From a virus (taxonomy: Duplodnaviria > Caudoviricetes), in IMG/VR virus record IMGVR_UViG_2636416124_000002, positions 1-64,000 of that record: DNA of 64,000 nt. One strand, written 5' to 3'. The position numbers and the translations under genes were made by a program. The notes beneath the pieces were generated by a model that was not told the DNA's origin, made no database searches, and saw only the letters and a list, made by a program, of their open reading frames with translations. Shown piece by piece: positions 3,728 to 46,990 of the stretch. Every line of letters begins with the position of its first letter. The first letter of the stretch is position 1.

Positions 3728-5895
3728 CTGCCGCCGACATGGAGCGCCTGGACGTCCCGCTGAATGTGCTCCTCGCGCAGGTGGATCAGATCGCCACCGA
3801 GAGGGACGCACAGGCCCGCGCCGAGGCCTACGCCGAGAACCGGCACCTCCTCTACGACGCCGACCCGACCGACACCGCCTTCGCCCTGCTGCCCTGCCCG
3901 CACCCCGAGCTGTGCTCCACCGGTGCGGACTACCCGGGCTTCGACGCCTGGATCACCCAGCAGCAGAACCTCAACACCGCAGCACGGAGGACCCGATGAG
4001 CAGCTACTACGCGGACATCGCTCCGCAGGCCTACGAGATCACGTGGCACGCCGGGCATGTCGAGACGGTCATCGCCCACCAGGTCTCTCACGACTCGCGG
4101 CGCATCCGGGTGTCGGCCCTGCCGGGCGGCGAGTTCGCGACCGAGGCGGACGGACAGCGCATCAAGTTCCACGCCGAGGTCGACGGCCAGTGGACGTTGC
4201 AGCTGTCCGCCATGGAGTCCGACATCCGCACGATCCGCAACATCACGAACGGCGAGCAGCTCCCCGGAGGCAACCGATGAACACCTTCAACCTCTCCTGG
4301 GGCGACCGCCCGATCGTGCTGGAGACCGAGGGTGCCCGCACGTTCCTCCGTCTCGGCGCCAACCTGCGGGTTGATGTGACGGACGCGTCGCTGGACCAGC
4401 TCGACCGGCTGGCCCAGGTGACGGCGGACCTCGCGGACGTCTGGCGGGACCAGATCCGGGCCGCCCGGGTGGCGGACGAGGTCGCCGCCGAGGACGGGTT
4501 CCCGTACCGGCGCAGGCAGGTGGCGGCATGAACGCCACGTTCGTTCACGAGGGCATCGAGTTCGACCTGACCCTCACCTACGCCGACTGCACTGGCGTCG
4601 AGTGGGTGTGGACCGGCGAACAGGTCGACGGCGTACCGCTGATGGCCCAGAAGCGGGCCCCGCACGGCTGCAGGGCACCGTGGAAGCTCACCGACCTGTA
4701 CTGGGAGCTGGGCCCGCTCATCGCGATCCACGACCGGCCGTCGAACACCGACTTCCGGAAGGCGATCGACCCGAACTACGAGGACACGGTGGCCGCCGGG
4801 TACGTCGAGGCGCCAGCCGCGTTCGGCGCCCGCATCGCGACGACACCGGTCCCGTCTCCGGCGGTCCCGCAGTTGACCGCCAACCACCTGCCGCCCAGCC
4901 CGCTGGAGCAGACCGGGTTCCGGCGGTTCATCCGCAGCCTCCAGAAGGGCGGCGCGTGATGGATGAACTGAGGAACGCGCAGGCTCGAATCACCGAGCTG
5001 GAGGCCGAGTTGGAGCGGTACGTGGGTAGGGAGCCGACGGTCCGCGACGAGATGGCCTACCTCCAGCGGTGCCTGAACTCGGTGCTGGAGCGGTGCGACC
5101 AGGCCGCCGCCCAGGCGGTCCGGTGGGAGAACCCGCTGCCGGTCCCGGAGTGGGTGATCGCGGTCCGGGAGGCCGCCTCGGGTGAACGCCCGGACAACCC
5201 GGCCGACAAGCGGCGGCGCATCTACATCGACGGCAACGGCAGCGGGTGGGTCGACCTGTCCGTCGACAACCACGGTCTGCTCTGGCTGCGCCGCATCAGC
5301 AACTCGGACGCTCATGCAACCCCGGGTTCGATCCGCGCCGAGACCGGCGGTCTGTACGAGATCGGCCGGTGCTGGTGACCGCCTACGTCATCACCGCCAC
5401 CGCCATCGGCGTCGTGTTCTGCGCGATGGCGGTGGCCCCCAGCCTCACCCGGAAGGGCAAGTCATGAGCTTCAGCAGCCTCATATCCCGCAGCAAGCCGA
5501 AGCACCGAGCCGCCGACAAGGTGGCCCAGTTGCAGGCCGAGAACAAGGCACTTGTCCGGCAGGCGTTCGGCGCCATGGAGTACATCGGCCAGCTCGAAGT
5601 GGTCAACGGGTGCCTCGCGGACACGGCCCGGAAGCTGACGGAGCAGCGCGATTCCGTATGGGGTGAGCTGGACGACCTGCGGATCGAACTCAGTGCTGCC
5701 AGAACGCGTCTCGCCCCGATGCTCGCGGCGGAGGCCAACGCGAACGCGATCACCGTGCCCGCCCCGATCCGGGACAGCAGCCGGTTCGAGGACCAGACCA
5801 CCGAGACGATCCGCGTGCGCCCCCTGTGGGAGGCGATCGGGCCCGTGGTCCGCACCGAGGGCAGTGCTGATCCGGTGCACCTGCCCACCGCATGA
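3724..5895 (+). CDS. Run of coupled small early genes: 3724-3999, 3996-4280, 4277-4531, 4528-4959, 4959-5378, 5375-5467, 5464-5895 (all hypothetical)
   Basis: Each start overlaps the previous stop (ATGA/GTGA/TGATG) and has a purine-rich RBS. Confidence 0.7.
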
Positions 5896-7540: not shown

Positions 7541-8379
7541 ACAACGAACTCGCTACCCGCGCCGACGAAACAGCCGCCGTTGTCAACTACCTTGCGGCCG
7601 ATCCGCCGACCGAGTCGGAGCTCGAAGCGTGGGCCCGCGACGCCATCGCGATCTCCCAGATCTCCGCGAACATCGCCACAACTAGCCTCGCCGGCGCCTA
7701 CCGCGGCAAGCCCGACGAGGTCACCGCCGTGATCCTCGCCGGGCACGAGCTCGGCATCCAGCCCATGACCTCGCTGAAGTCGATCGACGTCATCCAGGGG
7801 CAGCCCGCACTGCGAGCCCACGCCATGCGAGGCCTGCTCCAGTCGAAGGGCCACGAGATCGAGCTGATGGAAGCCACGGCCTCCTACTGCAAGATGCGCG
7901 GCCGGCGGAAGGGCGCCGACGTGTGGCAGGAGGTCGAGTGGGACATCGACCGAGCCCGCCTGCTGGGGCTCCTCGGCAAGGACCAGTGGAAGAAGCAGCC
8001 GAAGACCATGCTGATCAACCGGGCCACCGGTGAGATCTGCCGGCTCGTCGCTTCGGACGCCCTGCACGGCATGCCCTACGCGGCCGAGGAACTCGACGGC
8101 TACACCCACGGCGAGGTCACCCAGCCGAAGCGGGCACCGCTGTCCGTCGCTTCCATCGCCGACCCGGGGCAGCCTCGCGCCGACTCTGGCGTGGTGGACG
8201 TCGACACCGACGACGAGCACGCCGCCGCCGTCCAGGCCCTCCGAGACTTCGGCCGCCAGCAGGGGGTCGACGACATCGAGGCCCTCGCCCACGAAGAACT
8301 CGGCGCCCCCGTCGAGCACGTCTCCGCCCAGGCCATCCGAGACCTCATCGACCGGCTCCACAAGGCCATCGCCGCCTGA
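7537..8379 (+). CDS. RecT-like single-strand annealing protein
   Basis: Directly follows the RecE-like gene. GHELGIQPMTSLKSIDVIQGQPAL...WKKQPKTML...A is a recombinase-type pattern. Confidence 0.7.
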   Translation: MNNELATRADETAAVVNYLAADPPTESELEAWARDAIAISQISANIATTSLAGAYRGKPDEVTAVILAGHELGIQPMTSLKSIDVIQGQPALRAHAMRGLLQSKGHEIELMEATASYCKMRGRRKGADVWQEVEWDIDRARLLGLLGKDQWKKQPKTMLINRATGEICRLVASDALHGMPYAAEELDGYTHGEVTQPKRAPLSVASIADPGQPRADSGVVDVDTDDEHAAAVQALRDFGRQQGVDDIEALAHEELGAPVEHVSAQAIRDLIDRLHKAIAA

Positions 8380-40308: not shown

Positions 40309-40371
40309 GGACCTGCCCGGTGACGCAGAAAGGCCCCGTCCGGTAAGGTCGGGGCCAGGCGGTCATCTTCA

Positions 40372-40495
40372 GGATGGGTCCGGTTCGTCACCGGAACCGC
40401 CACTGTGCGGGAGATCCCGGTTCAAGTCCGGGCCAGTCGACTCAGTCGGCTAGTAGCTCAATGGCCAGAGCGTCCGCTCCTAACGAACCGCATCC
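40372..40495 (+). ncRNA. Circularly permuted tRNA-like RNA (YrlA/Y-RNA architecture, or a permuted tRNA gene)
   Basis: Order is GCGGG / AGAT / T arm CCCGG-TTCAAGT-CCGGG / CCAGTCG / linker ACTCAGT / CGGCTAG / TA / D arm GCTC-AATGGCCA-GAGC / G / TCCGC. The acceptor and anticodon stems pair. The flanks pair as CGGTTCGT:ACGAACCG and GGATG:CATCC. Confidence 0.8.
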
Positions 40496-41351
40496 CGGCC
40501 AGCCTTCAGCTCCATGGGCGTCATGGCCAGGTCGCGGTAGTACGTCATCGCGTGCCCCTGGAGCCGCTGTACCACCCGGTCCTGTTCGGGACCACTCAAT
40601 CCGTGACCGGCGGGCGCCGCGTTGAACCTTCGGCGGCTGACCGCCGTCGAGCTACGGTAGTCGCGAGCGATGGCCTCCGCCCACTGGGCGCGGGTGAGGG
40701 CACGCTGGACTCGCCCGTTGATCTCATGAGCCGACTCCTTCGTCACCGCCAACGTTGCCATGATCTCGGGCCAACCCAGCGTCGGCGGCATGTCGACCTT
40801 CGTGTACGTGAAAGGCCGCCCTGCGAGGCTCTCCCACCGTGTCACCGCTGCGGGCGACAGCCCTTTCCACCGGTCGATCAGCTTCTTGTTGACCTTTCCG
40901 GCTCCGTGCATCATCGCGTTGCGCCACGTCAAGCAGAAGCCCAGTAGCTCGTCTGCGACGGTCTCGGCTTTGCCGAAACGCAACGTCTCATGGAGTGCTG
41001 GCACCGGCCAGCCCCCGGAGCTGACTGCTTCGTGATCAAGGGCGGGAAATGCTGGCACTCAACGATCGTGCCCACACACAGTTCGATGTGCAGTGCCATG
41101 ACTTGAGGGATGGCGAGAACCGCCATGTCGGCCGCCGCCGAGCCGAAGATCTTTGTCGCGTCGGCGACCGTGACGTCGAGTCGCTCCGCCTGCGGCACCG
41201 CGTTCAGTATCGTGCTCGCCCTGATCTCGGGGTCTGGAGCCTGGTCCATATCCTGCTGGATGTGATGCGCCCCTACCGACAGGGCCAGGATGCTGTTGTT
41301 CGAGCGCTTCTGCATGGCCTGCCACGTCCGAAACGCGCTGTACTGGATCAA
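40480..41351 (-). CDS. Lower-GC accessory protein, candidate HEPN RNase (frameshift near 41050-41080)
   Basis: TTG start at 41351. An all-helical-looking sequence carries LTWRNAMMHG (R-x4-H). ORFs 40929-41351 and 40480-41058 overlap in different frames. Confidence 0.5.
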
Positions 41352-41501: not shown

Positions 41502-41669
41502 ATGCCAGGCCGACGACACACCGGCTTCAAATCCAAAGCACAGTGGAAGATGTTCTTCGCCAACCCCCGGCTCCGCCGCTACGCCCGCCAGAAAGCCCGC
41601 GCCACCAAGGGTGGAAAGATCACCCGCTACCGGCGGCTCCCCGCCCGCAAGGGCACCCGCCGTCGCTAA
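41502..41669 (+). CDS. 55-aa very basic protein
   Basis: GGAGGTGA RBS. MPGRRHTGFKSKAQWKMFFANPRLRRYARQKARATKGGKITRYRRLPARKGTRRR. Confidence 0.65.
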   Translation: MPGRRHTGFKSKAQWKMFFANPRLRRYARQKARATKGGKITRYRRLPARKGTRRR

Positions 41670-46199: not shown

Positions 46200-46990
46200 A
46201 TGACGACCCCGCCCCGCAGCACCCGAGGGAACAACGACGGACCCCGGCACCCAGCCGGCCAACCCGCCCAACCCCCGGCCGCACCACCCGCACCGGCCCA
46301 ACCGGAGCCGGCCGCACCCACCACCGCCGAACCGAGCGAACCGAACCAGCCCGAACCGAAGGCCAAGGCGCCCAAGTTCGAAGGCGACTTCGACCCCGCC
46401 CGGTTCGAGAAGCTCGTCGAGAACCTTCGCGGCGACGTCGCAGCCGAGAAGGCCAAGCGCGAAGCCCTGGAACAGAAGGCCAAGGACGACCAGGACGCCC
46501 TCATGAAGCGGGTGGCCGCAGCGTTCGGCCTGGAGACCGACGAGGCCAAGCCGCCCACCCCCGAAGAGCTCGCCAAGCAACTGGACGAGGCCCGCGGAGA
46601 GACCAAGGAGTCCCGCGCGCAGGCCCGCCAGACGCAGGTCGAACTCGCCGTCTACAAGACGGCCGGGAAGCACGGTGGCGACCCCGACGCACTGCTCGAC
46701 TCACGCACCTTCGCCAACGCCATCTCGAAGCTCGACCCGGCCACGGACGACTTCAACGAGCAGGTCGGCAAGGCAGTGAAGACGGCAGTCGACAGCAACC
46801 CGAAGCTCGCGGCCAAGGCGCCGCAGCCGAAGGAGCCGGAGCCCACCCCGCAGGGGGCGCACCGATGGACGGGGCCGGTGGGAGCAAGAAGCAGCTGGGC
46901 GAGGCGGATCTAGCTCGCATGACTCCCAAGCAGATCAACCAGGCCATGGCCGAAGGGCGGTTCGACCGCTACCTGGGCAGGGCCGGATAA
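46200..46990 (+). CDS. Capsid scaffolding protein (frameshift in G run near 46853)
   Basis: Pro-rich N-terminus, coiled coil, GGDPDALLDSRTF; directly precedes the capsid gene. Confidence 0.8.

What the first reader, a model, noticed from the sequence alone, without database searches (positions are those of the whole stretch)
40372..41351. Candidate HEPN RNase convergent with and overlapping the tRNA mimic
Seen: a lower-GC minus-strand gene of about 290 aa with WRNAMMHG, whose stop (40480-40482) lies inside the RNA's terminal helix. Known: HEPN domains use R-x4-6-H, and several (PrrC, RloC) cleave tRNA in abortive infection. Inference: a prophage defence RNase, with the anticodon-less tRNA mimic as an uncleavable RNA antitoxin. 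That would be a new type III-like toxin-antitoxin pair. The adjacency could also be coincidental.
Basis: inference. Interest (0 to 1): 0.7.

Follow-up and report, generated by a model that had tools for sequence, protein, structure and literature searches.

The report
HEPN-like nuclease gene with tRNA-mimic RNA
A Streptomyces prophage carries a broken copy of an uncharacterised RNA-cutting-type (HEPN-like) gene that, in almost every relative found, sits tail-to-tail with its own small RNA shaped like a tRNA without an anticodon, which points to an undescribed protein-RNA toxin/antidote or phage-defence pair.

Summary
The gene is real. It lies on the minus strand at 40480-41351 and is split by one missing base in a G-run (C5 at 41012-41016). 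Intact ~290-aa relatives exist in Streptomyces.

The family has 245 representatives and no Pfam, PHROG or PADLOC assignment. R-N-x3-H is essentially invariant. An AlphaFold model (pLDDT 86) puts the motif at the end of the third core helix, as in HEPN domains, and an all-against-PDB structure search ranks HEPN domains first (Z 8-10). Sequence-profile links to named HEPN families stay below threshold.

The RNA (40357-40477, plus strand) is a separate gene with a conserved -10 box. It has a 5' three-way junction followed by a permuted tRNA body (T arm, closed acceptor, D arm, no anticodon loop). In 16 sequences, 28 of 38 pairs show compensatory changes.

- **Linkage:** of 22 gene loci, down to about 20% protein identity, 19 have the RNA convergent at the stop and one is split by an IS-like insertion. 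Scans for the RNA alone returned only gene-bearing loci.
it is not conserved.
- **Function:** toxicity and the antitoxin role are untested.

Closest known are AbiF plus its RNA antitoxin, and YrlA Y RNAs. Other first readers flagged this stretch and this RNA on this same genome.

The parts
41017..41351 (-). [quoted passage not shown]
   Evidence: ORF 40929-41351. It aligns to residues 1-112 of intact 290-aa homologs.
41012..41016 (-). Frameshift site: a G5 run on the coding strand where intact homologs have G6 (one base missing)
   Evidence: DNA alignment with L010, L001, L011, L004 and L005. The window gene is 872 nt, which is not a multiple of three. Sequence read.
40480..41011 (-). C-terminal part of the HEPN-like gene, including the stop codon at 40480-40482
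   Evidence: ORF 40480-41058. It is 84-89% identical to Streptomyces homologs P0001-P0004.
40906..40923 (-). R-N-A-M-M-H, the Rx4H catalytic-type motif of HEPN domains
   Evidence: Read directly from the sequence. R is present in 116/116, N in 113/116 and H in 115/116 members of A3. The motif lies at the C-terminal end of helix 132-149 in the AF2 model, which is where HEPN domains carry it (PMC3710099).
40344..40349 (+). Putative -10 box (TAAGGT) of the RNA gene, 7 nt before the RNA start
   Evidence: A TANNNT box sits at the same distance from the RNA start in L001, L002, L004-L011 and in distant loci (TAGAAT, TAAGCT, TATTCT). The generic sigma-70 scan found nothing.
40357..40401 (+). 5' domain of the RNA: a three-way junction. 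P1 is 40358-40363 with 40396-40401. Hairpin P1a is 40364-40376. Hairpin P1b is 40380-40394, with conserved GUUC.
   Evidence: RNAalifold and pair counts: all 16 pairs are kept, and 14 of them show compensatory changes across the 16 sequences.
40407..40477 (+). Permuted, anticodon-less tRNA-like body. In order: 3' strand of the anticodon-like stem (40407-40411), variable loop, T arm (40416-40432), acceptor-like stem closed by a loop (40433-40453), D arm (40456-40471), 5' strand of the anticodon-like stem (40473-40477).
   Evidence: Partial match to Rfam YrlA: 19 bits, model positions 28-81. Covariation is seen in the anticodon-like stem, T stem and acceptor stem. ARAGORN calls no tRNA here.

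Best explanation
The region holds a two-part mobile module.

- **Part 1, the protein.** A ~290-aa all-helical protein from an unnamed family of the HEPN superfamily, carrying an invariant R-N-x3-H site. I infer that it is a metal-independent endoribonuclease that acts on tRNA or other cellular RNA.
- **Part 2, the RNA.** A dedicated RNA of about 125 nt, transcribed from its own promoter towards the 3' end of the gene. It consists of a 5' three-way junction fused to a tRNA-shaped body in which the acceptor stem is closed and the anticodon loop is missing.

Most likely (inferred, not shown), the RNA binds the protein as a pseudo-substrate and keeps the nuclease silent, as the RNA antitoxins of type III toxin-antitoxin systems and of AbiF do. 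Loss of the RNA, or an infection signal, would free the nuclease to stop translation. That would give abortive-infection defence or addiction to the prophage.

The copy in this window is inactivated by a one-base deletion in a G-run, or that deletion is a homopolymer sequencing error. The RNA gene here is intact.
For: **Gene and frameshift:**

**HEPN assignment:**
- The motif is invariant in 116 sequences of 17-35% identity.
- The AF2 model has pLDDT 86 and pTM 0.81. The motif lies at the end of core helix 3, there is an insert between helices 2 and 3, and position 90 in helix 2 is D or E in 67 of 116 members. These match the description of HEPN domains in PMC3710099.
- In the VIA-align search against 48,161 chains, 10 of the top 12 hits are entries titled or described in the literature as HEPN domains (5yep_B Z 9.8, 7ae2_A 9.7, 2hsb 9.5, sacsin HEPN 9.3). 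Csm6, AbiA, HepS, LsoA and RnlA rank below them.
- Weak hits to HEPN models recur: RTasHEPN x8 (on residues 139-157 of P0001), DUF3644 x8, CARF_HEPN, AbiA and Cas13a; DUF4145, HEPN_Swt1 and Ribonuc_2-5A. The nearest named ESM Atlas clusters are EC042_2821 and HEPN_RiboL-PSP.

**RNA is real and structured:** 95.8% of cells are paired, 28 of 38 pairs show compensatory changes, and 0 of 500 shuffles reach the observed values. The promoter box is conserved, and distant loci have a terminator.

**Linkage:**
- The RNA is convergent at the stop in 19 of 22 gene loci. A further locus is split by an insertion with inverted repeats.
- The loci lie in different contexts: prophage, chromosome-end region, restriction/AIPR island, CBASS/methylase island, and an operon with an AAA_15/21 ATPase.
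- The RNA-only pattern found 2 viral contigs and 1 metagenome contig, all carrying the gene.
- None of 150 other Streptomyces genomes has the full RNA.

**Precedents:**
- A HEPN toxin neutralised by an adjacent RNA: AbiF/RCd22 (PMC12373285).
- A prophage HEPN that cleaves tRNA anticodon loops: HepS (PMC13043305).
Against: - No experiment or expression data exist. Toxicity, RNase activity, RNA binding and the direction of the RNA's effect are all inferred.
- No Pfam or PDB sequence match passes threshold. Foldseek found nothing. Z values of 8-10 are within the range the tool warns can arise from generic helical bundles. hhalign against two EC042_2821 proteins was not significant.
- Two family members with the motif intact (L025, L043) have no detectable RNA. 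The RNA is therefore not an obligatory antidote for every member, or it is replaced there.
- The layout (convergent, single RNA unit) differs from known type III systems.
- The tRNA-like core occurs elsewhere without this gene.
Confidence: 0.5

Rival explanations
1. The RNA is a positive partner rather than an inhibitor. It would be a scaffold, sensor or specificity subunit of a ribonucleoprotein, much as Y RNAs tether Ro60 to effectors or a crRNA arms Cas13. The nuclease would need the RNA in order to act.
For: The same co-occurrence data fit equally well. The RNA body is YrlA-like, and YrlA RNAs are protein-tethering RNAs (PMC4201824). In the window the RNA stays intact although the gene is broken, which fits either reading. 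One branch sits in an operon with an AAA_15/21 ATPase that could be the regulator instead.
Against: Two members lack the RNA but keep the catalytic motif. No variable, guide-like segment was seen; the variable parts are hairpin loops. For HEPN proteins with a dedicated non-CRISPR RNA, the known example (AbiF) uses the RNA as an inhibitor (PMC12373285).
Confidence: 0.22
2. Antisense (type I-like) control. The RNA's 3' end overlaps the 3' end of the gene's mRNA, either directly in Streptomyces or through a shared bidirectional terminator elsewhere. The resulting duplex would trigger degradation or block expression. The tRNA-like body would only stabilise the RNA or recruit tRNA-processing enzymes.
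For: The convergent geometry is conserved, with the RNA ending from -28 to +48 nt of the stop. In the Streptomyces clade there is no room for a terminator between the RNA and the stop. In the window and its closest relatives, the antisense tail can also pair with the RNA's own 5' domain.
Against: The elaborate, covarying tRNA-like fold is more than antisense control would need. The overlap itself is not conserved in length or sequence. In one genome an IS-like insertion separates the two genes and both remain intact. Type I toxins are small membrane peptides, not 290-aa enzymes (established knowledge).
Confidence: 0.1
3. The protein is a catalytically inert or non-nuclease HEPN-like RNA-binding protein, for example a chaperone or processing factor for this RNA. 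The module would then have a role unrelated to toxicity or defence.
For: Several HEPN-fold families are not nucleases (MtlR, substrate-binding domains of nucleotidyltransferases; PMC3710099), and some of them appear among the structure hits. Sequence matches to catalytic HEPN families are all sub-threshold.
Against: The non-catalytic HEPN families have typically lost Rx4-6H (PMC3710099). Here R, N and H are near-invariant. The family is patchy, found in 1 of 400 other Actinomycetota genomes, and sits in prophages and defence-island-like contexts, which fits a conflict system.
Confidence: 0.1
4. The adjacency has no functional meaning. The RNA would work with another partner (host Ro60/Rsr, or as a decoy against other tRNases) and merely travel next to the gene.
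For: The tRNA-like core occurs without the gene in Microbacterium phage Percival next to tRNA-Lys and an RtcB-like ligase, on an IMG/VR contig, and at a conserved Streptomyces chromosomal site. Two of the three Streptomyces host genomes searched (G002, G003, not G001) encode a TROVE protein elsewhere.
Against: The pair is kept in 19-20 of 22 loci at 17-90% protein identity, in unrelated neighbourhoods, always in the same geometry. The full RNA was never found without the gene. There is no TROVE gene in this virus record, and no Ro-type terminal stem is present.
Confidence: 0.05

Closest known systems
AbiF / Abi_2 HEPN toxin with its RNA antitoxin (abiF motif; RCd22 of a C. difficile prophage; PMC12373285)
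   Same: A prophage-borne HEPN-type protein paired with one dedicated, adjacent structured non-coding RNA. In that system the RNA binds the protein and neutralises it.
   Different: No Abi_2 Pfam match and no abiF Rfam match were found. The RNA here is a tRNA mimic with a 5' junction domain rather than abiF motifs. It is convergent and downstream of the gene, not upstream in the leader. Its function here is untested.
YrlA-type bacterial and phage Y RNAs with Ro60/Rsr (Rfam RF02553; PMC4201824)
   Same: The same permuted tRNA-like module in the same order (T arm, closed acceptor stem, D arm), with the anticodon arm replaced by other RNA.
   Different: The score is far below the family threshold (19 against 69 bits) and covers only the tRNA-like part. 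There is no stem formed by the 5' and 3' ends; a 5' three-way junction takes its place. No TROVE gene is present in the record. The conserved neighbour is a HEPN-like gene.
Type III toxin-antitoxin systems (ToxIN, CptIN, TenpIN)
   Same: The proposed logic is the same: an endoribonuclease held inactive by direct binding of a cognate structured RNA, giving abortive infection.
   Different: Those toxins are not HEPN proteins. Their antitoxins are tandem repeats upstream in the same operon and are processed by the toxin. Here the RNA is a single unit, convergently transcribed (established knowledge).
HEPN anticodon nucleases of defence systems (PrrC, RloC; prophage Gifsy-1 HepS, PMC13043305)
   Same: HEPN RNases, some of them prophage-encoded, that cleave tRNA anticodon loops to abort infection. 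The HepS structure 9oik is among the structure hits (Z 7.5).
   Different: Those are regulated by proteins (EcoprrI, a phage tail tip) and none has a dedicated tRNA-like RNA partner. There is no detectable sequence similarity.
EC042_2821 / DUF3644 HEPN family (PMC3710099)
   Same: This is the nearest named family by weak profile hits (DUF3644 model, 8 members, best E 8.7e-5) and by language-model features. It has the same R-N-x3-H type motif.
   Different: hhalign against two members was not significant. Those proteins are fused to wHTH or REase domains and sit in restriction-modification operons.

Membership tests
HEPN superfamily | Rx4-6H motif with a polar residue (N/D/H) directly after R | tested here: met
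   The window has R-N-A-M-M-H. R is present in 116/116, N in 113/116 and H in 115/116 members of A3.
HEPN superfamily | [quoted passage not shown] | tested here: met
   The AF2 model (pLDDT 86) has core helices 5-37, 72-99, 132-149 and 194-218. The motif occupies residues 144-149, and the insert spans 100-131. This rests on a predicted structure only.
HEPN superfamily | Structural similarity to solved HEPN domains | tested here: met
   In the VIA-align wide search, 10 of the top 12 hits are entries titled or described in the literature as HEPN domains, with Z 8.2-9.8 and 115-137 aligned residues covering whole targets. Foldseek gave nothing. Z is below the tool's caution level for helical bundles.
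HEPN superfamily | Significant sequence-profile match to a curated HEPN family | tested here: inconclusive
   Only sub-threshold hits were found: DUF3644, RTasHEPN, CARF_HEPN, AbiA, DUF4145, Swt1 and Ribonuc_2-5A. hhalign against EC042_2821 proteins was not significant.
HEPN superfamily | Conserved acidic residue in helix 2 | tested here: inconclusive
   Position 90 is D or E in 67 of 116 members, and E is invariant in the Streptomyces clade.
HEPN superfamily | Metal-independent endoRNase activity | not testable with these tools
   This needs a biochemical assay.
Type III toxin-antitoxin system | The RNA antitoxin binds and inhibits the protein toxin directly | not testable with these tools
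   Inferred only, from co-occurrence.
Type III toxin-antitoxin system | The antitoxin is a tandem-repeat RNA upstream of the toxin in one operon | tested here: not met
   The RNA is a single unit, convergent and downstream of the gene, in all loci.
YrlA / Y RNA (RF02553) | tRNA-like domain in the order T arm, closed acceptor, D arm | tested here: met
   the order matches PMC4201824.
YrlA / Y RNA (RF02553) | Reaches the Rfam gathering score, and has a Ro-binding stem formed by the 5' and 3' ends | tested here: not met
   The match is 19 bits against a threshold of 69, over model positions 28-81 only. The 5' end folds into its own three-way junction.
YrlA / Y RNA (RF02553) | Encoded next to a Ro60/Rsr (TROVE) gene | tested here: not met
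   There is no TROVE match in the 82-kb virus record. In two host genomes the TROVE gene lies on other contigs.
AbiF / Abi_2 with abiF RNA | Abi_2 (AbiD/F) protein domain and abiF RNA motif | tested here: not met
   No Pfam or PADLOC Abi_2 hit was found. No abiF Rfam hit appeared at E<=10.

The most novel reading that the evidence does not exclude
This is a previously undescribed class of protein-RNA conflict module. A Ro60-independent, Y-RNA-like permuted tRNA mimic is the dedicated partner of a HEPN tRNase. The RNA occupies the enzyme's tRNA-binding site but offers no anticodon loop to cut. If so, tRNA mimicry would be a general way of caging or decoying anticodon nucleases, and the orphan tRNA-like RNAs of other phages (for example Percival) could be anti-defence decoys.
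Probability: 0.35. Interest if true: 0.85.

Novelty: new variant of a known kind. Interest (0 to 1): 0.72.

Why it matters
The finding defines two unannotated families: a HEPN-like protein family of about 245 clusters, and a covariation-supported RNA of about 125 nt that is absent from Rfam. It also shows that the two travel together.

If the RNA is an antitoxin, this would be a second, independent case of a HEPN nuclease controlled by RNA, after AbiF, the proposed ancestor of Cas13. It would also be the first case in which the controlling RNA is a tRNA mimic.

The finding gives a concrete function to test for the YrlA-like tRNA mimics that occur without Ro60 in phages and Actinomycetota. It also offers a simple two-part system for experiments in Streptomyces phage defence.

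Tried and rejected
**Searches that gave nothing**
- Pfam, PHROGs and PADLOC on the window's two ORF pieces and on intact homologs: no family.
- tblastn of both pieces against 50,697 phage records: no match.
- PDB sequence-profile searches: only chance-level hits.
- Foldseek against PDB: nothing with E<=0.001.
- hhalign of the family profile against two EC042_2821 proteins: not significant.

**Ideas tested and dropped**
- A true tRNA or tmRNA: ARAGORN finds none.
- A canonical Y RNA with Ro60: no TROVE gene, sub-threshold YrlA score, no terminal stem.

**Technical problems**
- A loose T-arm/D-arm DNA pattern mostly picked up tandem tRNA genes. Secondary hits of the RNA model in host genomes were likewise partly tandem tRNAs.
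- L003 first looked like a gene without the RNA. It turned out to be split from the RNA by an insertion with about 33-nt inverted repeats and a duplicated CTAA.

Full report
**1. What is in the sequence**

On the minus strand, two overlapping ORFs, 40929-41351 (140 aa) and 40480-41058 (192 aa), together align end to end with ~290-aa hypothetical proteins of Streptomyces at up to 89% identity. The window gene is 872 nt long. Against the 91%-identical copy in a related IMG/VR prophage (L010), it lacks one G of a G6 run, which is C5 at 41012-41016 on the plus strand. The gene is therefore frameshifted here. A homopolymer sequencing error cannot be told apart from a real mutation.

WRNAMMHG is present (R at 40921-40923, H at 40906-40908), and the stop codon is at 40480-40482. 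The record is an 82-kb IMG/VR virus. The gene lies between a block of small plus-strand genes and the minus-strand portal and large terminase genes.

**2. The protein**

No Pfam, PHROG, PADLOC or PDB sequence match passes threshold. An exhaustive profile search finds 245 cluster representatives, mostly 275-300 aa. In an alignment of 116 of them, at 17-35% identity to the Streptomyces protein:

- R144 is invariant.
- N145, H149, W173 and W224 are present in 113-115 members.
- Position 141 is R in 96 members.

An AlphaFold2 model built from 32 homologs is confident (pLDDT 86, pTM 0.81) and all-helical. It fits the published anatomy of HEPN domains (PMC3710099) in three respects:

- The motif sits at the C-terminal end of helix 132-149.
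- A variable insert separates the second and third long helices.
- Position 90 in the second long helix is acidic in 67 of 116 members.

Foldseek found nothing. The all-against-representatives VIA-align search ranks HEPN domains first: 5yep_B Z 9.8, 7ae2_A 9.7, 2hsb 9.5, sacsin HEPN 9.3, HI0074, 4nqf and 8xdj. Csm6, AbiA, HepS, LsoA, RnlA and Csx1 rank further down. These Z values lie within the range the tool warns about for helical bundles, so the weight rests on the enrichment for HEPN entries together with the motif.

Weak HMM hits point the same way:

- RTasHEPN on residues 139-157, DUF3644, CARF_HEPN, AbiA and Cas13a.
- DUF4145, HEPN_Swt1 and Ribonuc_2-5A.
- The nearest named ESM Atlas clusters are EC042_2821 and HEPN_RiboL-PSP.

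Profile-profile comparison with two EC042_2821 proteins was not significant. I conclude that this is an unnamed family of the HEPN superfamily with an intact catalytic-type motif (about 0.8). RNase activity is inferred.

**3. The RNA**

ARAGORN calls no tRNA in the window. Rfam gives only a partial, sub-threshold YrlA match over the T arm, closed acceptor and D arm (19 bits).

The same RNA lies directly after the stop of the homologous gene in other loci. Eleven Streptomyces copies gave a covariance model. Sixteen copies, including distant ones, gave an alignment with these properties:

- 95.8% of cells pair.
- 28 of 38 pairs carry compensatory changes.
- No shuffle (0 of 500) and no slid register comes close to the observed values.

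The fold has two parts:

- A 5' three-way junction (P1 plus two hairpins, 40357-40401).
- A permuted tRNA body (40407-40477): 3' strand of an anticodon-like stem, variable loop, T arm, acceptor-like stem closed by a loop, D arm, then the 5' strand of the anticodon-like stem. There is no anticodon loop.

A TANNNT box sits 7 nt before the first nucleotide in all clades. In distant loci an intrinsic-terminator hairpin follows the RNA. The RNA is therefore an independent gene.

Within the Streptomyces clade it pairs in 116 of 132 cells without any double change, and its 3' strand is the coding sequence of the gene's last codons. It pairs in only 6 of 12 cells in L002, and it cannot exist where a terminator and a 26-48 nt gap separate the RNA from the stop.

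**4. Linkage of gene and RNA**

I obtained DNA for 22 distinct gene loci:

- **RNA adjacent (19 loci).** The RNA is convergent, ending from -28 to +48 nt of the stop. These are the window, L001, L002, L004-L011, L023, L024, L026, L027, L041, L042, L049/L050 and L053.
- **Split by an insertion (1 locus, L003).** An insertion with about 33-nt inverted repeats and a duplicated CTAA separates the gene from an intact RNA that lies on another contig of the same genome.
- **No RNA found (2 loci, L025 and L043)**.

The partners are conserved together down to about 20% protein identity and in unrelated settings:

- prophages;
- a chromosome-end region with TniQ and helicase genes;
- a methylase/AIPR/DUF5677 island;
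- a methylase/GIY-YIG/SMODS island;
- an operon behind an AAA_15/AAA_21 ATPase, next to HicB.

No other gene is consistently adjacent.

In the reverse direction, a DNA pattern taken only from the RNA's 5' domain hit two of 2.9 million viral contigs and one metagenome contig. All three carry the gene in the same geometry. In five genomes the only strong RNA matches are at gene loci. None of 150 other Streptomyces genomes has the full RNA. The protein occurs in 1 of 400 other Actinomycetota genomes.

The bare tRNA-like core, without the 5' domain, does occur without the gene:

- directly after tRNA-Lys in Microbacterium phages Percival and Gretchen, near an RtcB-like ligase in Percival;
- on an IMG/VR contig;
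- at a conserved Streptomyces chromosomal site.

**5. Mechanism**

*Shown:* a conserved gene-RNA pair; a HEPN-like fold with an invariant catalytic-type motif; a tRNA-shaped RNA that lacks the loop which anticodon nucleases cut; a patchy, mobile distribution in prophages and defence-type neighbourhoods.

*Inferred:* the protein is an RNase, and the RNA binds it as a pseudo-substrate and silences it. On that reading the module works as a toxin/RNA-antitoxin or abortive-infection unit.

Two precedents exist. The prophage AbiF HEPN toxin is neutralised by its adjacent RNA, RCd22 (PMC12373285). The prophage HEPN protein HepS cuts tRNA anticodon loops (PMC13043305).

The rivals are an activating or scaffolding RNA, antisense control through overlapping 3' ends or a shared terminator, a non-catalytic RNA-binding protein, and coincidence. 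They are weighed in their own sections of this report.

The broken gene beside an intact RNA in this window fits the usual decay order of toxin-antitoxin pairs, but it is a single case.

**6. Comparison and novelty**

This is not a member of Abi_2/abiF, of the ToxIN-type type III systems, or of the YrlA/Ro60 family, because defining features were tested and not met (see the membership table). It works most like AbiF with its RNA, and it borrows the RNA architecture of YrlA.

I found no paper describing a HEPN protein paired with a tRNA-like RNA in the library I could search. Earlier notes of this scan report other permuted tRNA mimics beside unrelated protein genes on other genomes. I did not test those.

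I class this as a new variant of a known kind: an RNA-controlled HEPN module, with a new protein family and a new RNA family.

Noticed in passing
L018:1501-1629 (+) and L019:1501-1595 (-): Two different Streptomyces genomes carry a second permuted tRNA-like RNA (38-40 bits to R1; T arm, closed acceptor, variant D arm). It sits at the same chromosomal site, between an aminotransferase gene and a conserved ~270-aa gene of unknown function. No HEPN-family gene is nearby.
   Followed up: partly
L012:3001-3075 (Microbacterium phage Percival, MH271308.1 about 46671-46745); also phage Gretchen: An unannotated minimal permuted tRNA-like RNA (anticodon-like stem, T arm, closed acceptor, D arm) starts 2 nt after tRNA-Lys(ctt), about 1.8 kb downstream of an RtcB-like RNA ligase gene. 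The phage record has no TROVE gene and no homolog of the HEPN-like protein.
   Followed up: partly
L030:4426-4486, 4711-4768 (+) and 7610-7767 (-): An IMG/VR contig (UViG_3300044946_000428) holds several permuted tRNA-like units but no member of the HEPN-like family within the 12-kb locus.
   Followed up: no
L049:540-3093 and L050:180-2523: In a distant branch of the family, the HEPN-like gene follows an AAA_15/AAA_21 ATPase gene in the same orientation, with a 29-nt gap. The tRNA-like RNA is convergent right after the stop, and a HicB gene lies beyond it. This may be a three-part version of the system.
   Followed up: partly
L003:3176-3930 and L044:about 1300-1500: In one Streptomyces genome, an element with about 33-nt inverted repeats (beginning TACTCCAGC) has inserted exactly at the CTAA between the RNA and the gene's stop, duplicating CTAA (an IS5-like target). 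Both partners remain intact.
   Followed up: partly
window 41503-41669 (+): A 55-aa, very basic ORF (Arg/Lys-rich) lies between the HEPN-like gene and the portal gene and overlaps the portal gene's end by 4 nt. It has no PHROG match.
   Followed up: no
window 40484-40495 versus 40372-40388: The complement of the gene's last codons can pair with two strands of the RNA's own 5' domain (12 of 12 pairs in the window; 116 of 132 across Streptomyces copies, through G-U changes only). Equivalently, the 3' end of the mRNA resembles part of the RNA's 5' domain. This could be chance, or a clade-specific alternative fold.
   Followed up: partly
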